Source: a virus
Taxonomy: Duplodnaviria; Heunggongvirae; Uroviricota; Caudoviricetes
IMG/VR virus record: IMGVR_UViG_2778261502_000005
Coordinates: 1-11,987 of that record
Length of the DNA stretch: 11,987 bases
Direction: 5' to 3' (one strand)
In this document: piece after piece, positions 3,089-9,421 of the stretch
Layout of the letters: every line of letters begins with the position of its first letter
Position numbering within the stretch: the stretch's first letter is position 1
The notes under the pieces: generated by a model
What the model saw: the letters and a program-made list of their open reading frames with translations, nothing else
Told to the model about the DNA's origin: nothing
The model's database searches: none
Translations under genes and position numbers: made by a program

Positions 3089-3384
3089 AAAAACCACCAT
3101 TTTTGAGCATAATGACACTCTTAGCTAGTGAGTTCATTATACACAGCGAACCTTATATGGATTAGTGGTGGTTTATTTTAACGCTTAAAAAGCATACGCT
3201 GCTAATAGCACAACGCCTTGCAATCAGATGCAAACCTTTGTCCACTACTAATCTCAATGAAATAGATCAGCAAAGCATTTGACTCTCCCCGTTGGATGAT
3301 GTGTGAAGTGCTGACTAGAATGCTGCAAATATGATATGATGTTTGGCATCCATTGACTTTAATTTGTTATATAGATAAATACAT

Positions 3385-4434: not shown

Positions 4435-6864
4435 TTAAGGATTACTTACCAACCCCTTCCATCCTCCACTTCCTGCGCTTGTGCATTGATAGAAGTATCC
4501 TGTGTTTTTGTCAACATATAATCCTCCTGGCTTACCATTAATAACTCCGTAAGGAGTTCCTGAACCGCTTATCAATGAAATACCATGTATAAAAGAAACA
4601 TTCTGACTATATGTTCCTGTCCCTGGAGCTCTGGCCATATCATTAATAGCACAAAGCCATGATCCAGCTGTTGATATGTTTGATATATTATCATCATCAT
4701 TTGGGACAATGGCTATCATTGGTATTGTTGCGTTTTTACCATAACCTCTAATATTACTTATTCCTCTTTGAACTCTTGAGTCTGTCAAATCTCTAATCAA
4801 TGGAACACTTACGCTATCTTCACAGATAAAGTTATTTATCGTGTAGTCATCACAGCTTGAATCAGTTTCTATATGAACCAATCCCTCGGCATCAGTATCG
4901 GAAGCTCCTGAGTATCCACCATCCCAAAAAATGCCATCTATGTTTATATATCTTGCTCCGCCGCTAATATATATATTACCAGCACCTCCGATAACCCTTA
5001 ATTCATTTATATAAATACCGTAGAACCCTAAAATTTCAACAACCCTTGCATGGTTTGATGTGTATTTTGAGTTGTTTGCGTTTTCAACCGTACAACTTGC
5101 TATAACGGAATACCTGGCATTTTGATGCCGCCCCGATGGTATTGATGCTGTATTAATGTGCTCAATTTGGAATCCATGAACACAATTTTTTGCATAACAT
5201 CTATAAAATTTAACACATCTTGCGGGCATTGTTGTTGAGTGGCCCTTCTGCTGAAATCCAGTCATTACCCCATCCGCATAACAATCCATCACGGTAACAT
5301 TATAACTTCCTTCATCAATTTCAATACCATGCTGATTCCCTGTCCATACCATATCAGGGTCATCGTTCCATACTCGGCAGCGGTTAATTACAATATCACT
5401 GCTATTATGCGTTGTAATGAGATCGTCAAGTTGACTGTTTTGAACAAAAGTGTCTTCAACAACAATGTCATAGCTACCACCAACTGCATTATTATTAATA
5501 TTCCCATCATCGAAATAATACCCAGCACAAATATCTATACCATGCTGCAAACCACGCTTACAGTAAACGTTTTTGATGGAACTGTGGCTGACAGTAGAAA
5601 ATAAAATAGTAGTCCCCTGTGTGGCATCCATCCATGTTTCTGACGGATTTCTTGCTCGATTGTTAGCATCTACACATAAGTCTTCTATGTGGATAGAAGT
5701 ATCGTAGTTTGTCCTGAATACCCTGTATTCATAAAGCTCGTTCTGAATACAGTTTTCAATTATCGGCATTGTTGGTAGTGCTAGAATAACGGTCTTAAAT
5801 TTCCCCACCCCACGCAATCTAACGTAAGATGGTACTTTCAGTGCAGAGTTAATCCCGTAAGTACCTTCAGAAAGAATAAGCTCTTTCACCGTTGCCATTT
5901 TTGCCGCTTGCAGTGCTTTGTTCAATTTATCATGACAATCCGTTACTCCATCAGGAACAATTCCGTAATAATCAGCATACACTTCATTGCAGATTCTTTT
6001 CCAACGCTTTCCACCAGGCGTCACAATTATCATTCCATCATCATCAATTGTTGTTAAATCAGTGCTATCATAATAAAAATACCCACCTCCAATACCAGAG
6101 CCTAAAGTATGCTCTAATACATATATTCTTTGCTGTAAATTTGTTGGTTCTATATTGCGTAAATTAGAAATGGAAGCACAATTGCCAATAAGTTTTAAGC
6201 CATCACTTGCTGCTAGCTGAATCATTACATCGGATGCAGATCCAGACTGTGGAAGGACCATAATAGGATTACCATTGTCATCCATCGCTACCACTTTGTT
6301 TTTACGATTCTCAGCATCAGGCAAACTTGGTATTGGCTCAGGCGTTCTAAGAGTACGACCTAGATTTGTATTAGCAAGTTTATCGACATAATTTTTAGTT
6401 GCCGCATCCTGTGGGCGCACAGGGTCTCGCAGATTTCTGATGTAGTTGTTAATAGCGTCATAATAATTCGACACAAAAGATGGCTTACGAAGAGCAAGTG
6501 AAAACCAACTTCTTACCTGCTGGATCAGCATCGTTAGCTTATCAAACGCGTCTTCGTGCACCTCAGCAAAAAACTTACCCTGGTTTCTAAGATCTGTTTC
6601 CTGAGTAACCGATAGTTCTCGCAATATGGAAATCTGATAACCATTAGCCAGTGCCTTCGACAGAATTACATTGCCACCGTTATACCCTCCCGCACCAGTG
6701 ACTGTGTAATCAGTATCAAGATCCAGCACAGTGATATTCTCGTCAAGGTCAATCACCTGCACTACTAAATCAGATTTATTGAAAACCCTAAAGGTATAAG
6801 GGAATGATGTCGTAACGCCGTTACCGGTGTATTCGTTGTGGTTAACTTCGGTTGAGACCGTCAT
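4435..6864 (-). CDS. Tailspike/tail fibre with T7-tail-fibre-like N-terminal anchor domain and C-terminal beta-helix (pectate-lyase-like) domain; probable polysaccharide depolymerase, 809 aa
   Basis: N-terminus (YTGNGVTTSFPYTF...DLVVQV...DYTVT...IRNLRDPVRPQDAATKNYVDKL) follows the conserved pattern of the T7 gp17 N-terminal domain. The remainder is rich in Gly/Asn/Ser/Thr/Ile as expected for a right-handed beta-helix. SD GGAG 7 nt upstream of the ATG. GC drops after roughly the first 170 codons. Confidence 0.8.
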   Translation of the reverse strand: MTVSTEVNHNEYTGNGVTTSFPYTFRVFNKSDLVVQVIDLDENITVLDLDTDYTVTGAGGYNGGNVILSKALANGYQISILRELSVTQETDLRNQGKFFAEVHEDAFDKLTMLIQQVRSWFSLALRKPSFVSNYYDAINNYIRNLRDPVRPQDAATKNYVDKLANTNLGRTLRTPEPIPSLPDAENRKNKVVAMDDNGNPIMVLPQSGSASDVMIQLAASDGLKLIGNCASISNLRNIEPTNLQQRIYVLEHTLGSGIGGGYFYYDSTDLTTIDDDGMIIVTPGGKRWKRICNEVYADYYGIVPDGVTDCHDKLNKALQAAKMATVKELILSEGTYGINSALKVPSYVRLRGVGKFKTVILALPTMPIIENCIQNELYEYRVFRTNYDTSIHIEDLCVDANNRARNPSETWMDATQGTTILFSTVSHSSIKNVYCKRGLQHGIDICAGYYFDDGNINNNAVGGSYDIVVEDTFVQNSQLDDLITTHNSSDIVINRCRVWNDDPDMVWTGNQHGIEIDEGSYNVTVMDCYADGVMTGFQQKGHSTTMPARCVKFYRCYAKNCVHGFQIEHINTASIPSGRHQNARYSVIASCTVENANNSKYTSNHARVVEILGFYGIYINELRVIGGAGNIYISGGARYINIDGIFWDGGYSGASDTDAEGLVHIETDSSCDDYTINNFICEDSVSVPLIRDLTDSRVQRGISNIRGYGKNATIPMIAIVPNDDDNISNISTAGSWLCAINDMARAPGTGTYSQNVSFIHGISLISGSGTPYGVINGKPGGLYVDKNTGYFYQCTSAGSGGWKGLVSNP

Positions 6865-6968
6865 GTTAAATCTCCAGATAGTCGCAGCACCCGTTGCGCC
6901 GCATATCCGATTATTCTATTACCCGAAAAACCATATATGGATAGATAGACCATGAATACAAACAGATA

Positions 6969-6983
6969 TTACCTTTCAGGTGA
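6969..6983. promoter_or_regulatory. Operator-like palindrome TTACC-N5-GGTGA upstream of the tailspike gene
   Basis: TTACCtttcaGGTGA, a 9/10 match to the TTACC-N5-GGTAA motif found around the repressor gene. Lies about 105 bp upstream of the tailspike ATG, next to a TTGCAA hexamer on the minus strand. Confidence 0.4.
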
Positions 6984-7012
6984 TTTGCAAAACGTGCTGG
7001 ATAGCAAACAAA

Positions 7013-7708
7013 TTATTTGATACTGTATAAATATACAGTTATTGCATGGAGAAGATAAGATGCAGCAGTATCACTATCCACTGGAAGACGGATTTTCCGA
7101 AGAAAGTCATCTGATGGCTGCCATTGTTCATGCATGACAAATTTGCCTAATTGCCCTGGCCCACCAGGAGGAACAAAGTTATTCATCACGGCGTTGTTTG
7201 CGCCGGGGTCATGATGCACAGAATCCCCGTTTTTTGTCCTGCTCTCCCTCTCTTGGTTAAATGACTGGTTATATGACTGGTTCTGGATCCCGTTTTTGGG
7301 ATCATTCAACATCCCGTTTTTGGGATCATTCAACATCCCGTTTTTGGGTATATTCCCGTTTTCGGGTATATTCCCGTTTTCGGGTATATTCCCGTTTTCG
7401 GGTTCATTGCCCCCCTCCCGGTTGCCTTTAATGTTCCCGTTTTTGGTTATATTAAGAGAGAAAACCCGCACTCTTTTTGTCGCTCCCTTTCTATCTCCGG
7501 TATCTGAAATAAGCCCCATTTTCATGAGCGATATAAGCCCGGCCTGCACGGTTTTTTTATTCAGGCAAGTGTCTTTAACGAGGCGTTCTATGCTGGGGTA
7601 GCAGAGGTTATATTCATCGGCTCTGTCAGCCATCGAGAGCAGTATGAGCTTTAATGATGAGCTACCTGGATCTGTCTCCCAGGCCCAATCTGTTGCATGT
7701 CTGCTCAT
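7013..7708 (-). CDS. Phage replication initiator, O-like, with N-terminal winged-HTH domain and internal repeat region, 231 aa
   Basis: N-terminal region (LKLILLSMADRADEYNLCYPSIERLVKDTCLNKKTVQAGLISLMKMGLISD) has the pattern of phage and plasmid replication-initiator HTH domains. The central part is a tandem peptide repeat (ENGNIP x3, NDPKNGML x2) encoded by iteron-like DNA repeats. Starts 13 nt after the upstream gene. Confidence 0.75.
   Translation of the reverse strand: MSRHATDWAWETDPGSSSLKLILLSMADRADEYNLCYPSIERLVKDTCLNKKTVQAGLISLMKMGLISDTGDRKGATKRVRVFSLNITKNGNIKGNREGGNEPENGNIPENGNIPENGNIPKNGMLNDPKNGMLNDPKNGIQNQSYNQSFNQERESRTKNGDSVHHDPGANNAVMNNFVPPGGPGQLGKFVMHEQWQPSDDFLRKIRLPVDSDTAASYLLHAITVYLYSIK
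7021..7040. promoter_or_regulatory. Candidate LexA (SOS) box
   Basis: TACTGTATAAATATACAGTT matches the consensus TACTGTATATATATACAGTA at 18 of 20 positions, with perfect CTGT-N8-ACAG arms and an all-A/T spacer. It lies within the last 9 codons of the O-like gene, about 157 bp upstream of the tailspike ATG. Confidence 0.55.
7289..7453. repeat. Iteron-like direct repeats (candidate replication origin) inside the O-like gene
   Basis: Seven tandem units sharing the core CCCGTTTT(T/C)GG(G/T): 24-bp units at 7289 and 7313; 18-bp units at 7337, 7355, 7373, 7391 and 7436. The core CCCGAAAACGGG is itself palindromic. A further 12-bp tandem (ATGACTGGTT-AT/CT) lies at 7261-7284. Confidence 0.65.
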
Positions 7709-7723
7709 GATTAATCTCCGCTA

Positions 7724-7924
7724 TCAGCTTGAGTGTTGTGGGGAGGAATTAATCATGATCTGCTTAATCTCTGCCCTGATGCGACGGTTTGATTCCATGG
7801 TGCACTCAACACAGTGTCCGTTGTAAACCCAGCGTTCACTGTCATGTCCGTGCTTACATGGTTTTCCGGTGTAGTAGCGTTTAAGTCCGCGCTTTGCGGC
7901 ATCAATACGTGTAATGATTTCCAT
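7724..7924 (-). CDS. Small Cys/His-rich (putative zinc-binding) protein in the cII-equivalent position, 66 aa
   Basis: Start placed at the internal ATG at 7924 (MEIITRI...), with an AGGG SD-like sequence upstream; the longer ORF beginning at 7987 adds a hydrophobic leader. Motif C-x-H-x-H-x13-H-C-x2-C. Function not recognisable from sequence. Confidence 0.45.
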   Translation of the reverse strand: MEIITRIDAAKRGLKRYYTGKPCKHGHDSERWVYNGHCVECTMESNRRIRAEIKQIMINSSPQHSS

Positions 7925-8004
7925 GGTAAGCCCTGTTATTAGTATTGGGATTACGGTTATTTTGTGCTGACACAAAAAAAAGATCAACCATATTTGGTTT
8001 TTTA

Positions 8005-8019
8005 TTACCTTTGAGGTAC
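8005..8019. promoter_or_regulatory. Operator-like palindrome TTACC-N5-GGTAC between the cro-side terminator and the Cys/His gene
   Basis: TTACCtttgaGGTAC, a 9/10 match to the shared motif. Confidence 0.4.
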
Positions 8020-8029
8020 GGATAGATAT

Positions 8030-8053
8030 GAAAAGACCGCCGGATGGCGGTCT
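8030..8053 (-). terminator. tR1-like rho-independent terminator downstream of the Cro-like gene
   Basis: GC-rich 8-bp stem AGACCGCC (8034-8041), loop GGAT, GGCGGTCT (8046-8053). On the minus strand it is followed by TTTTCAT. Sits between the Cro-like stop (8075) and the next gene. Confidence 0.5.
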
Positions 8054-8074
8054 ACAGAGGGTTGTGGCTGGATA

Positions 8075-8305
8075 TCATGAGTAGAAGAAGTATGCCAGTT
8101 CTGCTTTTGAGCGCAGCCATTGTCTTGTTTTACAGGCTTTAAAAAGCCCATTCATCAATACTTTACCTGGCATTTTGCGCTTACCTGTTAAGTGAGTCTG
8201 GATATAGTGACTCGTCGTTCCGGCTTCCTGTGCGAAGGCTTCACGCTCATCCGGAGTAAGTGCAAGCCAGTGCTTTTTGAAATCGAAATGTCCGTTATCG
8301 CTCAT
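8075..8305 (-). CDS. Cro-like small HTH regulator (DicC/YdaS-like), 76 aa
   Basis: Small basic protein divergently transcribed from the repressor gene. Putative HTH around EAFAQEAGTTSHYIQTHLTG. The position matches lambda cro. Family call is tentative. Confidence 0.6.
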   Translation of the reverse strand: MSDNGHFDFKKHWLALTPDEREAFAQEAGTTSHYIQTHLTGKRKMPGKVLMNGLFKACKTRQWLRSKAELAYFFYS

Positions 8306-8341
8306 AGCTATTGCCTGATATTTATTTCAGATAATAAATAT

Positions 8342-8404
8342 TCACCTATAAGGTAACAAAAATCAAGGATAGTTACCCATGAGGTGCATTTACCTGTTGG
8401 GTAA
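8342..8404. promoter_or_regulatory. OR-like operator cluster of three TTACC-N5-GGTAA-type palindromes in the divergent Cro-like/repressor promoter region
   Basis: Sites at 8342-8356 (TCACCtataaGGTAA), 8373-8387 (TTACCcatgaGGTGC) and 8390-8404 (TTACCtgttgGGTAA, perfect). An AT-rich 9-6-9 palindrome ATATTTATT-N6-AATAAATAT lies at 8318-8341. Confidence 0.6.
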
Positions 8405-8459
8405 TATTGCTTTAAATTGAATCATCTACTGATTCATATATGAGGCGATTTTCCAGAAA

Positions 8460-9044
8460 ATGAAAAGTATCCAGGACGTCCGCAGGCAAAATCTCAACGA
8501 CTTGATCGACCGTGAATTCAATGGTGTTCAGACGCGGATGGCAGAAAAACTTGGAACTCAGGCAAATCTGGTAAACCGCTGGGCTCTTGGCAAGAAGGTT
8601 ATCGGCGACCAGGTTGCGCGAAAAATTGAAGCTGCCGCCAATAAACCCCGTAATTGGCTTGATATCGATCGCTCGCTTTCTCAGGAAGGTTTTCAGCCTG
8701 TCGGCCCGAGTGATATAGGTCAGCTGGCTGCTCACAACCTGGAACGCTGGATGAGCGAAAGCCGCGACCTTTCAACACAGGGAAAACTTCACCGCGCATC
8801 CGGCGTCGCCCAGGTGACAATCAGCCGCCTGTTAAACAATGAGGTCAGCGTTTCCATTTCCACCCTGGAGAATGTTGCATCCGCATTCGGGCGTCACGGC
8901 TATGAATTACTGATTCACCCGCACGACCCTGCGACTATCAACTATGACCGCTCGCGCTACGCATTGTTACCCGAAACAGAGAAGGCAAAGATCGAAAGTT
9001 ACATTGAATTTGTCATCAGCCAGAACGAAAAAAACAAACAATAA
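8460..9044 (+). CDS. Phage repressor with two tandem XRE-type HTH domains and no S24 peptidase domain, 194 aa
   Basis: First HTH around QTRMAEKLGTQANLVNRWALGKK, second around LHRASGVAQVTISRLLNNEV. No Ala-Gly/Ser-Lys autocleavage module is recognisable. The nearest SD-like GAGG is about 14 nt upstream of the ATG. Flanked by operator palindromes on both sides. Confidence 0.8.
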   Translation: MKSIQDVRRQNLNDLIDREFNGVQTRMAEKLGTQANLVNRWALGKKVIGDQVARKIEAAANKPRNWLDIDRSLSQEGFQPVGPSDIGQLAAHNLERWMSESRDLSTQGKLHRASGVAQVTISRLLNNEVSVSISTLENVASAFGRHGYELLIHPHDPATINYDRSRYALLPETEKAKIESYIEFVISQNEKNKQ

Positions 9045-9065
9045 AATCATATTTTTCAGTAAGTA

Positions 9066-9090
9066 AGCCGCCTTCTGGCGGCTTTTTTAT
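9066..9090 (+). terminator. Rho-independent terminator after the repressor gene
   Basis: AGCCGCC (9066-9072), loop TTCT, GGCGGCT (9077-9083), followed by TTTTTTATT. Confidence 0.75.
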
Positions 9091-9100
9091 TGCCAGATAG

Positions 9101-9123
9101 ATTACCTTACGGGTAATTTTTTT
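9101..9123 (+). terminator. Second hairpin with T-tract; also a perfect copy of the operator palindrome (OL-like distal site)
   Basis: ATTACC-ttacg-GGTAAT followed by TTTTTTT. The core TTACCttacgGGTAA lies at 9102-9116. Confidence 0.5.
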
Positions 9124-9135
9124 AACTCATATCTA

Positions 9136-9178
9136 TTGACACCAAACCAAATAAGCATAATTATTACCTCAACGGTAA
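9136..9178 (+). promoter_or_regulatory. pL-like early promoter with overlapping operator, driving the small ORF, methyltransferase and phosphatase
   Basis: Consensus -35 TTGACA (9136-9141), 17-bp spacer, -10 candidate AATTAT (9159-9164). Perfect operator TTACCtcaacGGTAA (9164-9178) overlaps the -10 and the predicted transcription start. SD GAGGT at 9185-9189. Confidence 0.55.
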
Positions 9179-9197
9179 CAGACCGAGGTAACAAGTT

Positions 9198-9347
9198 ATG
9201 CAGTGGAAAATCATCAACGGTTGGTACTGCGTTACTGCATGCGGATTCATGAGCTGGAAGTTCCGCACCTTACAGGAAGGTATTAAGTGGGCTTTCGTCA
9301 GCAAAGAAGCTCGCGATGTGGCCAACGATAACGAGATATGGGAGTAG
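9198..9347 (+). CDS. Small ORF of unknown function (first gene of the early operon), 49 aa
   Basis: ATG with SD GAGGT 8 nt upstream. Trp- and Cys-containing (MQWKIINGWYCVTACGF...). Absent from the ORF track because of its length. Coding status unverified. Confidence 0.4.
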   Translation: MQWKIINGWYCVTACGFMSWKFRTLQEGIKWAFVSKEARDVANDNEIWE

Positions 9348-9421
9348 GTTAGCAAATGAGTGAATTGTCAATCATCGAAATCACACCAGACATAGCGGCA
9401 TAGGATGTTGTGGGGTGGTTT

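What the first reader, a model, noticed from the sequence alone, without database searches (positions are those of the whole stretch)
8342..9178. Recurrent 15-bp palindrome TTACC-N5-GGTAA forms an operator network flanking the repressor gene
The palindrome occurs three times perfectly (8390-8404, 9102-9116, 9164-9178) and four times with one or two mismatches (8342-8356, 8373-8387, 8005-8019, 6969-6983). A 10-position motif is expected about 0.01 times by chance in 12 kb. Three sites sit between the divergent Cro-like and repressor genes, as OR1-3 do in lambda, and two sit after the repressor gene, one of them overlapping the -10 of a consensus TTGACA promoter. That is a lambda-like OL/OR layout built on a different operator sequence, presumably read by the tandem-HTH repressor, the Cro-like protein, or both.
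Basis: seen in the sequence. Interest (0 to 1): 0.65.

Follow-up and report, generated by a model that had tools for sequence, protein, structure and literature searches.

The report
Repressor operators of phiV10-like prophage
The repeated TTACC-N5-GGTAA palindrome is real. It is the operator of the immunity repressor of a defective phiV10/epsilon15-type prophage in E. coli. The same sites are already annotated as repressor-binding sites in the epsilon15 genome record, so this is a correct rediscovery and not a new system.

Summary
There are three perfect TTACC-N5-GGTAA sites against 0.01 expected. The four imperfect sites are not significant on their own, but each sits at a position where related phages also carry a site.

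The window is a deletion-bearing phiV10-like (Uetakevirus) prophage at the guaA attachment site. Its 194-aa repressor matches the structurally solved Salmonella phage SPC32H Rep over its full length (PDB 5d50, E=4e-42). That protein binds palindromic DNA as a tetramer and is inactivated by an antirepressor, not by RecA-dependent cleavage.

The same palindrome occurs at the same positions in phiV10, Tyrion, BUCT554, epsilon15, SPC32H and a Klebsiella phage. The epsilon15 GenBank record annotates eight such sites as 'protein_bind: repressor'.

In whole genomes there are 14-15 sites against about 0.6 expected. Nearly all are intergenic and precede most transcription units, so the network is larger than OL/OR. 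Paired sites lie 62 bp apart (63 bp in one case) and bracket a TTGAC/TTGAT -35 element.

In 80 related loci the palindrome arms are almost invariant and the N5 spacers vary freely.

Three corrections apply: the repressor is not CI-type, only its N-terminal HTH is the DNA-binding domain, and the operator sequence is not new.

Verdict: already known, low interest.

The parts
8342..8356 (.). OR operator nearest the cro-like gene, TCACCTATAAGGTAA (1 mismatch). It overlaps the predicted core promoter of the cro-like gene.
   Evidence: A syntenic site is present in phiV10, Tyrion, BUCT554, epsilon15, SPC32H and Kp711. Arms are invariant in 16 haplotypes.
8373..8387 (.). Middle OR operator, TTACCCATGAGGTGC (2 mismatches). 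The deviant arm GGTGC is itself conserved in the phiV10-type lineages.
   Evidence: The site is a perfect palindrome at the same position in epsilon15, SPC32H and Kp711. Arms are invariant and the spacer is polymorphic.
8390..8404 (.). OR operator nearest the repressor gene, a perfect TTACCTGTTGGGTAA. Its right arm runs into the conserved GGTAATATT, a candidate -10 for the repressor promoter.
9102..9116 (.). Distal OL operator (perfect), 19 bp upstream of the TTGACA -35.
   Evidence: It lies 62 bp centre to centre from the proximal site; 12 of 13 such pairs are 62 bp apart and one is 63 bp.
9164..9178 (.). Proximal OL operator (perfect). It starts at the last base of the -10 and covers the expected transcription start.
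8005..8019 (.). Single operator (1 mismatch) just downstream of the cro terminator and upstream of the gp42/replication genes.
   Evidence: In the six-lineage alignment the GGTAAT arm and the ACC core are invariant.
6969..6983 (.). Single operator (1 mismatch) in the divergent region between the tailspike gene and the antirepressor (ant) gene.
   Evidence: It corresponds to phiV10 20877-20891 and to epsilon15 19895-19911, which GenBank annotates as a repressor-binding site.
8460..9044 (+). Immunity repressor Rep (194 aa). The N-terminal HTH is the DNA-binding domain, the middle HTH_3-like domain serves dimerisation, and the C-terminus serves tetramerisation and Ant binding.
   Evidence: PDB 5d50, E=4e-42 over residues 1-190. 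Pfam hits are HTH families only. 99.5% identical to phiV10 gp40. Domain roles are taken from PMC9986798.
8075..8305 (-). Cro-like gp41 (76 aa), first gene of the rightward early operon.
   Evidence: phrog_35 'transcriptional repressor', E=5.6e-13. 76% identical to epsilon15 gp39, with AGTTSHYIQ.HLT invariant. The five-helix model resembles YdaS and 434-type HTH domains, but only weakly.
9136..9164 (+). Early-left promoter: TTGACA, 17-bp spacer, AATTAT.
   Evidence: 10 of 12 matches. The -35 is conserved in all lineages.
8331..8359 (-). Candidate promoter of the cro-like gene (TTGTTA-17-TATTAT). An alternative -35, TTGATT at 8370-8365, is invariant in six lineages.
   Evidence: Which of the two is used is not resolved.
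9065..9084 (+). Intrinsic terminator after the repressor gene.
   Evidence: Annotated at the same place in phiV10.
8034..8053 (-). Intrinsic terminator after the cro-like gene.
   Evidence: Annotated in phiV10.
7959..7987 (-). Candidate promoter for gp42 and the replication genes (TTGATC-17-CAAAAT). It is followed by a lone TAACC half-site (TTACC in four of the five relatives aligned).
   Evidence: Inferred from conservation in the six-lineage alignment. It falls below the threshold of the promoter scan.
7023..7038 (.). LexA box (CTGT-N8-ACAG within TACTGTATAAATATACAGT) in front of the ant remnant.
   Evidence: Syntenic boxes lie upstream of ant in SPC32H, epsilon15 and phiV10.
7060..7137 (+). 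Remnant of the antirepressor gene ant (25 codons), cut off by the internal deletion of the prophage.
   Evidence: phiV10 p24 is the ortholog of SPC32H Ant.

Best explanation
The palindromes are the operators of the prophage immunity repressor Rep, the 194-aa protein encoded at 8460-9044. This is an SPC32H/epsilon15-type repressor.

Binding (inferred from homology). Pairs of the N-terminal HTH domain read the two TTACC arms of each 15-17-bp site. The protein acts as a tetramer, so one tetramer offers two such pairs and can hold two palindromes at once.

Action at each place (inferred).
- After the repressor gene, two operators 62 bp apart (about six helical turns) bracket the early-left promoter. 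One lies 19 bp upstream of the -35 and one covers the -10 edge and the start site. Occupancy should shut the promoter.
- Between the repressor and cro-like genes, one operator lies on the cro promoter. Two adjacent operators, 17 bp centre to centre, lie over the region from which the repressor gene must be transcribed. This would give repression of the lytic operon and probably autoregulation.
- Single operators extend control to the replication genes (after the cro terminator) and to the divergent tailspike/antirepressor region.

Release (inferred). Induction in this family comes from a small antirepressor whose gene carries a LexA box. In this copy that gene is truncated, so the repressor would stay bound.

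Shown here: the sites, their excess over chance, their synteny, spacing and selective constraint, and the homology of the protein. Not shown here: binding itself, its stoichiometry, and the assignment of promoters.
For: - Excess over chance. There are 3 perfect sites against 0.01 expected in the window. At up to 1 mismatch, phiV10 has 14 sites against 0.64 expected and epsilon15 has 15 against 0.58. In phiV10, 12 of the 14 lie in the 6.5% of the genome that is intergenic (binomial P=4.5e-13).
- Synteny. The OR triplet, the OL pair, the site after the cro terminator and the tailspike/ant site recur in phiV10, Tyrion, BUCT554, epsilon15, SPC32H and Kp711, although the repressors are only 42-78% identical.
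- Conserved module. The arrangement operator, 19 nt, TTGAC/TTGAT -35, about 17 nt, -10, operator has 62-bp spacing in 12 of 13 instances and 63 bp in the other.
- Constraint. Among 80 phiV10-like loci the arms are polymorphic in 4 of 60 columns, the N5 spacers in 16 of 30, and other intergenic columns in 75 of 365. Fisher tests give arms against spacers P=1.5e-6 and arms against other P=0.011. This is the pattern expected for half-site recognition by a protein.
- The protein. It matches SPC32H Rep over its full length (5d50, E=4e-42). The motif NLVNRW in the N-terminal HTH is invariant in all six lineages. Published summaries state that SPC32H Rep binds palindromic sites as a tetramer and is dismantled by Ant (PMC9638917; PMC9986798).
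- Prior annotation. The epsilon15 GenBank record annotates eight of these palindromes as 'protein_bind: repressor'.
- Distant relatives. Phages whose repressors have a related N-terminal domain carry TTACC-N4-GGTAA (PseuP_224) or TACC-N5-GGTA (pOW20-A) on both sides of the repressor gene.
- Function of the protein. The identical repressor protein of phage ZX5 shifted the phage towards lysogeny when overexpressed (PMC9782041).
Against: - No binding experiment for these exact sites could be read. The primary SPC32H and epsilon15 papers are not held. That the experimentally bound SPC32H operator is this palindrome therefore rests on the GenBank annotation and on sequence.
- The epsilon15 annotation is itself a prediction.
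- The promoter of the repressor gene could not be located with confidence, so autoregulation is conjecture.
- The Cro-like protein also has an invariant recognition helix and could be the main reader of some sites.
- The haplotypes used for the polymorphism test are related to one another, so its P-values are optimistic.
Confidence: 0.85

Rival explanations
1. The palindromes are read mainly by the 76-aa Cro-like protein gp41 acting as a lytic-phase repressor or temporal regulator, with Rep binding elsewhere or only to a subset.
For: gp41 matches a phage 'transcriptional repressor' family (phrog_35). Its predicted helix-turn-helix segment AGTTSHYIQ.HLT is invariant across lineages that share the palindrome. 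Its predicted fold resembles Cro/CI-type HTH domains. In lambda-type switches Cro and CI share operators (established knowledge).
Against: Distant phages with a Rep-like N-terminal domain keep TACC-type palindromes around the repressor gene; whether they encode a gp41 homolog was not checked. Published summaries say SPC32H Rep binds palindromic DNA. The fold matches for gp41 are statistically weak (E of 1 or more). Shared use by both proteins remains possible and is compatible with the best explanation.
Confidence: 0.07
2. The palindromes are sites for a host factor, or act as RNA or DNA hairpins (attenuators, processing sites), and are not operators of a phage protein.
For: The sites lie next to terminators and within 5' leaders. 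The epsilon15 record also annotates IHF and RNase III sites in the same intergenic regions.
Against: The stems are only 5 bp with no T-run. The arm sequences themselves are invariant, with no compensatory changes, while the loop or spacer varies. The sites keep fixed positions relative to -35 and -10 elements. The motif is conserved across phages of E. coli, Salmonella, Klebsiella and Enterobacter and follows the repressor N-terminal domain into Pseudomonas and Psychrobacter phages. A 50-kb sample of the E. coli K-12 chromosome has no perfect site.
Confidence: 0.04
3. The recurrence is chance or a by-product of base composition.
For: At 2 mismatches the count in the window (11) is only about twice the expectation (4.7). 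One-mismatch hits occur about once per 10 kb in the K-12 sample.
Against: Perfect sites number 3 against 0.01 expected, and 0 of 200 shuffles reached 3. Whole phage genomes carry 14-15 against about 0.6. Strict synteny and 62-bp spacing hold across lineages.
Confidence: 0.01

Closest known systems
Repressor-binding sites annotated in Salmonella phage epsilon15 (GenBank AY150271.2; Kropinski et al. 2007)
   Same: The palindrome is the same (ATTACC-N5-GGTAAT). The positions are the same: after the repressor gene, in the tailspike/gp19 divergent region, and before terS, gp3 and RuvC. The flanking genes are homologous.
   Different: The window repressor is only 42% identical to epsilon15 gp38 (53% in the DNA-binding domain). 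epsilon15 has three OL sites where the window has two. The epsilon15 record does not annotate the OR triplet, although the sequences are there. The window copy has lost most of the dispersed sites through deletion.
Rep-Ant immunity system of Salmonella phage SPC32H (PDB 5d50/5d4z; Kim & Ryu 2013; Kim et al. 2016)
   Same: Rep is homologous over its full length (E=4e-42). The same palindromes occur at the same positions in SPC32H DNA. The small ant gene lies divergent from the tailspike gene and is preceded by a LexA box. Rep binds palindromic sites as a tetramer and is inactivated by Ant (PMC9638917 and PMC9986798).
   Different: In the window ant is truncated to 25 codons, so the induction arm is missing. 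Biochemistry has been done only on the Salmonella protein.
Lambda CI/Cro switch with OR1-3 and OL1-3
   Same: The repressor and cro-like genes are divergent with three operators between them. A second operator cluster lies beyond the repressor gene on a promoter that fires away from it. Operator strengths look graded, because the deviant arms are themselves conserved.
   Different: There is no S24 autoprotease domain and no RecA-dependent cleavage. The oligomerisation architecture differs. The operator sequence differs. Operators also precede late, lysis and integrase genes in intact relatives, so control does not pass through an antitermination cascade alone.
Dispersed multi-operator repressors (P1 C1; mycobacteriophage L5 gp71 'stoperators')
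   Same: A dozen or more sites for one repressor are scattered over the phage genome. The comparison itself rests on established knowledge of P1 and L5.
   Different: The sites here are symmetric palindromes at promoters. They are not asymmetric sites, and they are not oriented sites inside transcription units. No protein homology was seen.

Membership tests
Uetakevirus (epsilon15/SPC32H-type) Rep-operator-Ant immunity system | Repressor homologous to SPC32H Rep over its full length (N-terminal DNA-binding domain, middle dimerisation domain, C-terminal tetramerisation and Ant-binding domain) | tested here: met
   5d50_A, E=4.1e-42, query residues 1-190. Alignment with six lineages.
Uetakevirus (epsilon15/SPC32H-type) Rep-operator-Ant immunity system | Repressor lacks a LexA/S24-type autocleavage domain | tested here: met
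   Pfam finds only HTH families.
Uetakevirus (epsilon15/SPC32H-type) Rep-operator-Ant immunity system | Operators are (A)TTACC-N5-GGTAA(T) palindromes, as annotated for the epsilon15 repressor | tested here: met
Uetakevirus (epsilon15/SPC32H-type) Rep-operator-Ant immunity system | Syntenic operator layout: a triplet between rep and the cro-like gene, and a pair 62 bp apart bracketing the promoter after the rep terminator | tested here: met
Uetakevirus (epsilon15/SPC32H-type) Rep-operator-Ant immunity system | LexA-controlled small antirepressor gene divergent from the tailspike gene | tested here: inconclusive
   The LexA box is intact at 7023-7038, but the ant reading frame is cut to 25 codons by the deletion junction at 7093-7101. 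The feature was present ancestrally and is not functional in this copy.
Uetakevirus (epsilon15/SPC32H-type) Rep-operator-Ant immunity system | Rep binds the palindromes as a tetramer | not testable with these tools
   Known only from published summaries for SPC32H Rep.
Lambda-type CI/Cro switch | Divergent repressor and cro genes with a tripartite operator between them, and a second operator cluster beyond the repressor gene | tested here: met
Lambda-type CI/Cro switch | Repressor with a C-terminal S24 peptidase domain cleaved on RecA activation | tested here: not met
   No Peptidase_S24 hit. The C-terminal half matches the SPC32H Rep oligomerisation domains.
Lambda-type CI/Cro switch | Repressor operators confined to the two early promoters, with late genes reached through antitermination | tested here: not met
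   Intact relatives carry sites before terS, the head genes, the lysis genes, int and the tailspike gene.
Lambda-type CI/Cro switch | Cro binds the same operators as the repressor | not testable with these tools
   gp41 is HTH-like, but its DNA target is unknown.
Dispersed-operator repressors (P1 C1, L5 gp71) | Many operator sites dispersed over the genome | tested here: met
   14 sites in phiV10 and 15 in epsilon15. Seven remain in the deleted prophage of the window.
Dispersed-operator repressors (P1 C1, L5 gp71) | Asymmetric operator sequence, orientation-dependent within transcription units | tested here: not met
   The sites are twofold symmetric, and 12 of 14 are intergenic.

The most novel reading that the evidence does not exclude
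All Uetakeviruses examined share one operator code, a near-invariant Cro-like protein (58-84% identical to the window's), an Ant protein that is closely similar in the two lineages compared (phiV10 and SPC32H) and a LexA box, although their repressors are only about 42% identical. These phages infect E. coli, Salmonella, Klebsiella and Enterobacter. If the repressors cross-recognise each other's operators, the genus would form a single immunity group. Rep would then be a genome-wide silencer holding ten or more transcription units directly, through single sites and 62-bp operator pairs. Ant-less remnants like this one would act as permanently locked immunity cassettes against the whole genus; the immunity region is found in 562 of 5426 complete E. 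coli genomes. The second palindrome, CCWWATWWGG, would mark a second regulator that has not been described.
Probability: 0.3. Interest if true: 0.4.

Novelty: already known. Interest (0 to 1): 0.2.

Why it matters
The result gives a sound annotation. It identifies the immunity region of a widespread E. coli prophage type and transfers the epsilon15/SPC32H operator model to phiV10-like elements. The phiV10 GenBank record shows no operators, and the ZX5 paper, which tested this repressor, did not map them.

It also shows that this copy is a defective prophage that keeps an intact repressor, its operators, an O-antigen acetyltransferase, a tailspike and lysis genes, but has lost its antirepressor. 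That bears on superinfection immunity and on serotype conversion.

It does not reveal a new regulatory principle.

Tried and rejected
- Primary papers. I tried to read the epsilon15 genome paper (PMC2698709), Kim & Ryu 2013 (PMC3807360) and Kim et al. 2016 (PMC4983836, also by DOI). None is held. The experimentally defined SPC32H operator sequence could therefore not be quoted.
- Literature searches. Searches for the motif itself and for epsilon15 operators gave nothing usable. The LF82 prophage paper has no operator data.
- More relatives. The search for related loci with the repressor alignment returned only near-identical phiV10-like loci. They were useful for the polymorphism test but not for covariation.
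- H-19B. The cI of H-19B shares 34% identity with the Rep N-terminal domain but has no comparable palindromes, so it was uninformative.
- Repressor promoter. I could not assign it. TAATAT at 8401-8406 has no credible -35, and TTGAAT at 8417-8422 has no -10. This is left open.
- gp41 structure. The single-sequence model gives only weak fold matches.
- Group-specific half-sites. I compared half-site logos for phiV10-type and epsilon15-type sites. The differences are small: A is preferred at position -1 and W or T at +1. This is too weak to claim distinct specificities.
- Extra GGTAAC. I considered the extra GGTAAC at 9185-9190 as a third OL half-site. It coincides with the ribosome-binding site of gp39, so it was not counted.
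Full report
**Observation.**

The exact pattern TTACC-N5-GGTAA occurs at 8390-8404, 9102-9116 and 9164-9178. That is 3 matches against 0.01 expected, and none of 200 shuffles reached 3.

They are not significant by count. At up to 2 mismatches the window has 11 hits against 4.7 expected. A 50-kb sample of E. coli K-12 has 0 perfect, 5 one-mismatch and 23 two-mismatch hits. The four imperfect sites are credible because of where they lie, as described below. The remaining hits at up to 2 mismatches (2950, 6513, 8181, 10442) lie inside coding regions and look like chance; only 8181 was checked against relatives, and it recurs in phiV10 but not in the four more distant lineages.

**What the window is.**

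The region 7093-9344 is 97% identical to Escherichia phage phiV10, and also matches phiv142-3, ZX5 and related phages of the genus Uetakevirus, the epsilon15-like podoviruses.

The phage attachment core ATTGAGTGGGAATGATT lies at 1164-1180. The bases to its left do not align to phiV10; I take them to be host DNA, and I recognise the two lipoprotein ORFs there as the E. coli genes yfgH and yfgI (from memory, not tested).

Aligning the window to the phiV10 genome shows a defective prophage. Window 6185-7101 matches phiV10 21675-20759, and window 7093-9344 matches phiV10 34032-31787. A deletion with a 9-bp overlap has therefore removed the 3' end of the replication initiator gene, the P-like replication gene, all head and tail-assembly genes, and most of the small gene p24. 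A second deletion removes p38, recET and their neighbours between gp39 and the methylase gene.

**The proteins.**

- **Repressor (8460-9044, 194 aa).** It is 99.5% identical to phiV10 gp40. It matches the solved repressor of Salmonella phage SPC32H over residues 1-190 (PDB 5d50, E=4.1e-42; the C-terminal fragment is 5d4z). Pfam sees only HTH families and no S24 peptidase domain.
- **What is published about SPC32H Rep.** According to papers that summarise the SPC32H work, Rep has an N-terminal DNA-binding domain, a middle dimerisation domain and a C-terminal tetramerisation domain that also binds the antirepressor Ant. It binds palindromic DNA as a tetramer, with each DNA-binding pair formed from different dimers. 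Ant breaks the tetramer (PMC9638917; PMC9986798).
- **ZX5 evidence.** The ZX5 paper reports that its ORF21 repressor has the same sequence as phiV10 ORF40, and that overexpressing it drives the phage towards lysogeny. That paper only speculates about operators (PMC9782041).
- **Cro-like protein (8075-8305, 76 aa).** It has no Pfam hit. It matches phrog_35 'transcriptional repressor' (E=5.6e-13). A single-sequence AlphaFold model (pLDDT 81.6, five helices) finds YdaS, 434-repressor and C-protein HTH domains as its best folds, at TM 0.56-0.62, but with E-values of 1 or more. 'Cro-like' is reasonable but not proven.

**Comparative evidence for the sites.**

- **Same positions in other phages.** The same palindrome occupies the same positions in phiV10, Enterobacter phages Tyrion and BUCT554 (repressors 78% and 75-76% identical to the window's), Klebsiella phage BUCT711 (45%), and Salmonella phages epsilon15 and SPC32H (42%).
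- **OR region.** In the alignment of the region between the repressor and cro-like genes, the arms of all three sites are conserved while their spacers differ. The middle site, which has two mismatches in the window, is a perfect palindrome in the epsilon15 group. Its deviant arm GGTGC is itself conserved throughout the phiV10 group, which suggests a deliberately weaker site.
- **After the cro terminator.** The site there keeps an invariant GGTAAT arm in all six lineages.
- **Tailspike/ant site.** Site 6969-6983 corresponds to phiV10 20877-20891 and to epsilon15 19895-19911.
- **Commonest deviation.** The most frequent deviant half-site is TCACC.

**Whole-genome counts.**

At up to 1 mismatch, phiV10 carries 14 sites against 0.64 expected, and epsilon15 carries 15 against 0.58. 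In phiV10, 12 of the 14 lie in the 6.5% of the genome that is annotated as intergenic (binomial P=4.5e-13). The other two lie just inside the annotated start of terS.

The sites precede terS, the portal-side head genes, the tailspike/p24 divergent pair, the lysis operon, int, the early-left operon, the cro operon, the replication genes and the p45/RuvC operon. The network is therefore not just OL plus OR. In intact phages it reaches most transcription units. The window retains seven sites only because the rest were deleted or replaced.

**A conserved promoter module.**

After the repressor gene, and again in front of p45/RuvC in intact relatives, two operators bracket a promoter. The order is operator, 19 nt, CTATTGAC(A)/CTATTGAT (-35), about 17 nt, -10, operator. 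The centre-to-centre distance is 62 bp in 12 of 13 instances and 63 bp in the other. That is about six helical turns, so the two sites face the same side of the DNA.

In the window the promoter is TTGACA-17-AATTAT at 9136-9164, and the proximal operator begins at the last base of the -10.

**Selective constraint.**

Among 80 phiV10-like loci from IMG/VR, with distinct haplotypes counted once, the operator arms are polymorphic in 4 of 60 columns. The N5 spacers are polymorphic in 16 of 30 columns, and other intergenic columns in 75 of 365. Fisher tests give arms against spacers P=1.5e-6 and arms against other P=0.011.

Fixed arm sequence with a free spacer is what half-site reading by an HTH dimer predicts. 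It argues against a hairpin function, where compensatory changes would be tolerated. The haplotypes are related to one another, so the P-values are optimistic.

**Link to the repressor's N-terminal domain.**

The N-terminal domain is the better conserved part of Rep: 53% identity to epsilon15, against 39% for the C-terminal part. NLVNRW in its HTH is invariant.

Distant phages whose repressors share only this domain carry related palindromes on both sides of the repressor gene. Pseudomonas phage PseuP_224 (39% identical in this domain) has TTACC-N4-GGTAA. Psychrobacter phage pOW20-A (40%) has (A)TACC-N5-GGTA(T). This ties the TACC half-site to this DNA-binding domain independently of the other genes in the region.

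**Already known.**

The epsilon15 GenBank record (AY150271.2) annotates eight of these palindromes as 'protein_bind: repressor, lysogeny' and cites the SPC32H Rep structure for the repressor gene. The annotated sites are three after the repressor gene and one each before terS, before gp3, in the gp19/tailspike region and before RuvC; one search lists eight protein_bind rows in all.

The phiV10 record itself annotates no operators, and the ZX5 paper did not map any. The window adds an annotation transfer, not a discovery.

**Mechanism (inferred).**

- Rep tetramers bind the palindromes through pairs of N-terminal domains.
- At OL, one tetramer could hold both sites and close the promoter.
- At OR, the site at 8342-8356 overlaps the cro promoter. 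That promoter is either TTGTTA-17-TATTAT at 8359-8331 or uses the invariant TTGATT at 8370-8365 as its -35.
- The adjacent pair at 8373-8404 covers the region from which rep must be transcribed, which suggests autoregulation. I could not locate that promoter.
- Single sites after the cro terminator and in the tailspike/ant region extend repression to the replication genes and to the tailspike and ant genes.
- Induction in this family works through Ant. SPC32H ant is the small gene divergent from the tailspike gene, and phiV10 p24 is its ortholog.
- A LexA box lies upstream of ant in SPC32H, epsilon15 and phiV10, and at 7023-7038 in the window. From memory, Kim & Ryu 2013 showed that LexA represses ant. 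I could not read that paper.
- In the window ant is cut to 25 codons, so this remnant has a repressor that its own SOS circuit can no longer remove.

**Rival explanations.**

- **Cro-like protein as the main reader.** This cannot be excluded, because its recognition helix is also invariant. The link between the N-terminal domain and the palindrome in distant phages, and the published DNA binding of Rep, favour Rep. Shared use by both proteins, as in lambda, is compatible with the main model.
- **Host factor or hairpin.** This is unlikely given the short stems, the invariant arm sequence, the fixed promoter geometry and the spread across hosts.
- **Chance.** This is excluded.

**Verdict.**

1. 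The repressor is of the SPC32H type, not the CI type.
2. It has one DNA-binding HTH, not two.
3. The regulon is genome-wide in intact relatives.
4. The operator sequence is already annotated in epsilon15.

Novelty: already known. Interest: low (0.2).

The least ordinary residue is that repressors only 42% identical share one operator code together with a conserved Cro-like protein, Ant and LexA box. That raises the untested possibility of genus-wide cross-immunity. A second promoter-associated palindrome of unknown function was also seen (see the items noticed in passing).

Noticed in passing
window 7023-7038 (box) and 7060-7137 (ORF): A near-consensus LexA box, TACTGTATAAATATACAGT, lies in front of the remnant of the antirepressor gene ant. 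Syntenic boxes precede ant in SPC32H, epsilon15 and phiV10. Here ant is truncated to 25 codons, so the SOS-inducible release of the repressor is lost.
   Followed up: yes
window 7093-7101 (junction), 1164-1180 (att core), 9344-9392: The prophage is defective. One deletion joins phiV10 position 20759 to 34032 with a 9-bp overlap, removing the replication P gene and all head genes and fusing the initiator gene to antisense ant sequence. A second deletion removes p38, recET and their neighbours. The att core marks the prophage end; the bases to its left do not align to phiV10.
   Followed up: partly
window 3151-3160, 6931-6940, 7988-7997: A second palindrome, CCWWATWWGG, occurs three times against 0.26 expected. 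All three copies are in promoter regions: the lysis operon, the tailspike gene, and the gp42/replication genes. The copy after the cro terminator is conserved in six lineages and is followed by an invariant TTGATCTTTTTT. A degenerate ACC-N6-GG also sits in the spacer of the OL and p45 promoters. Its function is unknown. It could be the site of a second regulator.
   Followed up: partly
window 8418-8436 (within 8408-8447): A perfect 7-bp inverted repeat, TGAATCA-N5-TGATTCA, lies between the OR operators and the repressor start codon. As RNA, the leader folds so that GCUUUAA pairs with the UGAGGC that holds the only Shine-Dalgarno-like GAGG (-13 kcal/mol, z=-2.6). It is conserved only in part in Tyrion and BUCT554 and is absent in the epsilon15 group.
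   Followed up: partly
window 7287-7403: Two adjacent tandem arrays lie inside the replication initiator gene: 24 bp x 2.6 copies and 18 bp x 3.8 copies, at 98-100% match. They encode NGNIPE and NGMLNDPK repeats. They probably serve as origin iterons, as in the lambda O gene.
   Followed up: no
window 7950-7959 (minus strand TAACCGTAAT): A lone operator half-site lies directly after the candidate -10 of the gp42 promoter. This is the position where the paired modules carry their proximal operator. It reads TAACC in the window and TTACC in four of the five relatives aligned. The second arm is missing.
   Followed up: no
L089 (Pseudomonas phage PseuP_224) 1421-1474 and 2298-2337; L091 (Psychrobacter phage pOW20-A) 1377-1442 and 2285-2324: Distant phages whose repressors share only the N-terminal domain carry TTACC-N4-GGTAA or (A)TACC-N5-GGTA(T) palindromes on both sides of the repressor gene. 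The TACC half-site appears to be an old property of this DNA-binding domain.
   Followed up: partly
L002 (phiV10) 87-119 against the annotated terS CDS 41-715: Two operator-like sites fall inside the annotated start of phiV10 terS. In epsilon15 the equivalent sites (12-44) precede terS (47-643). The phiV10 start codon is probably annotated too far upstream.
   Followed up: no
E. coli genome collection: The immunity region (window 6600-9400) is found in 562 of 5426 complete E. coli genomes, and at 80% coverage or more in 420 of them. This repressor-operator set is therefore common in the species.
   Followed up: no
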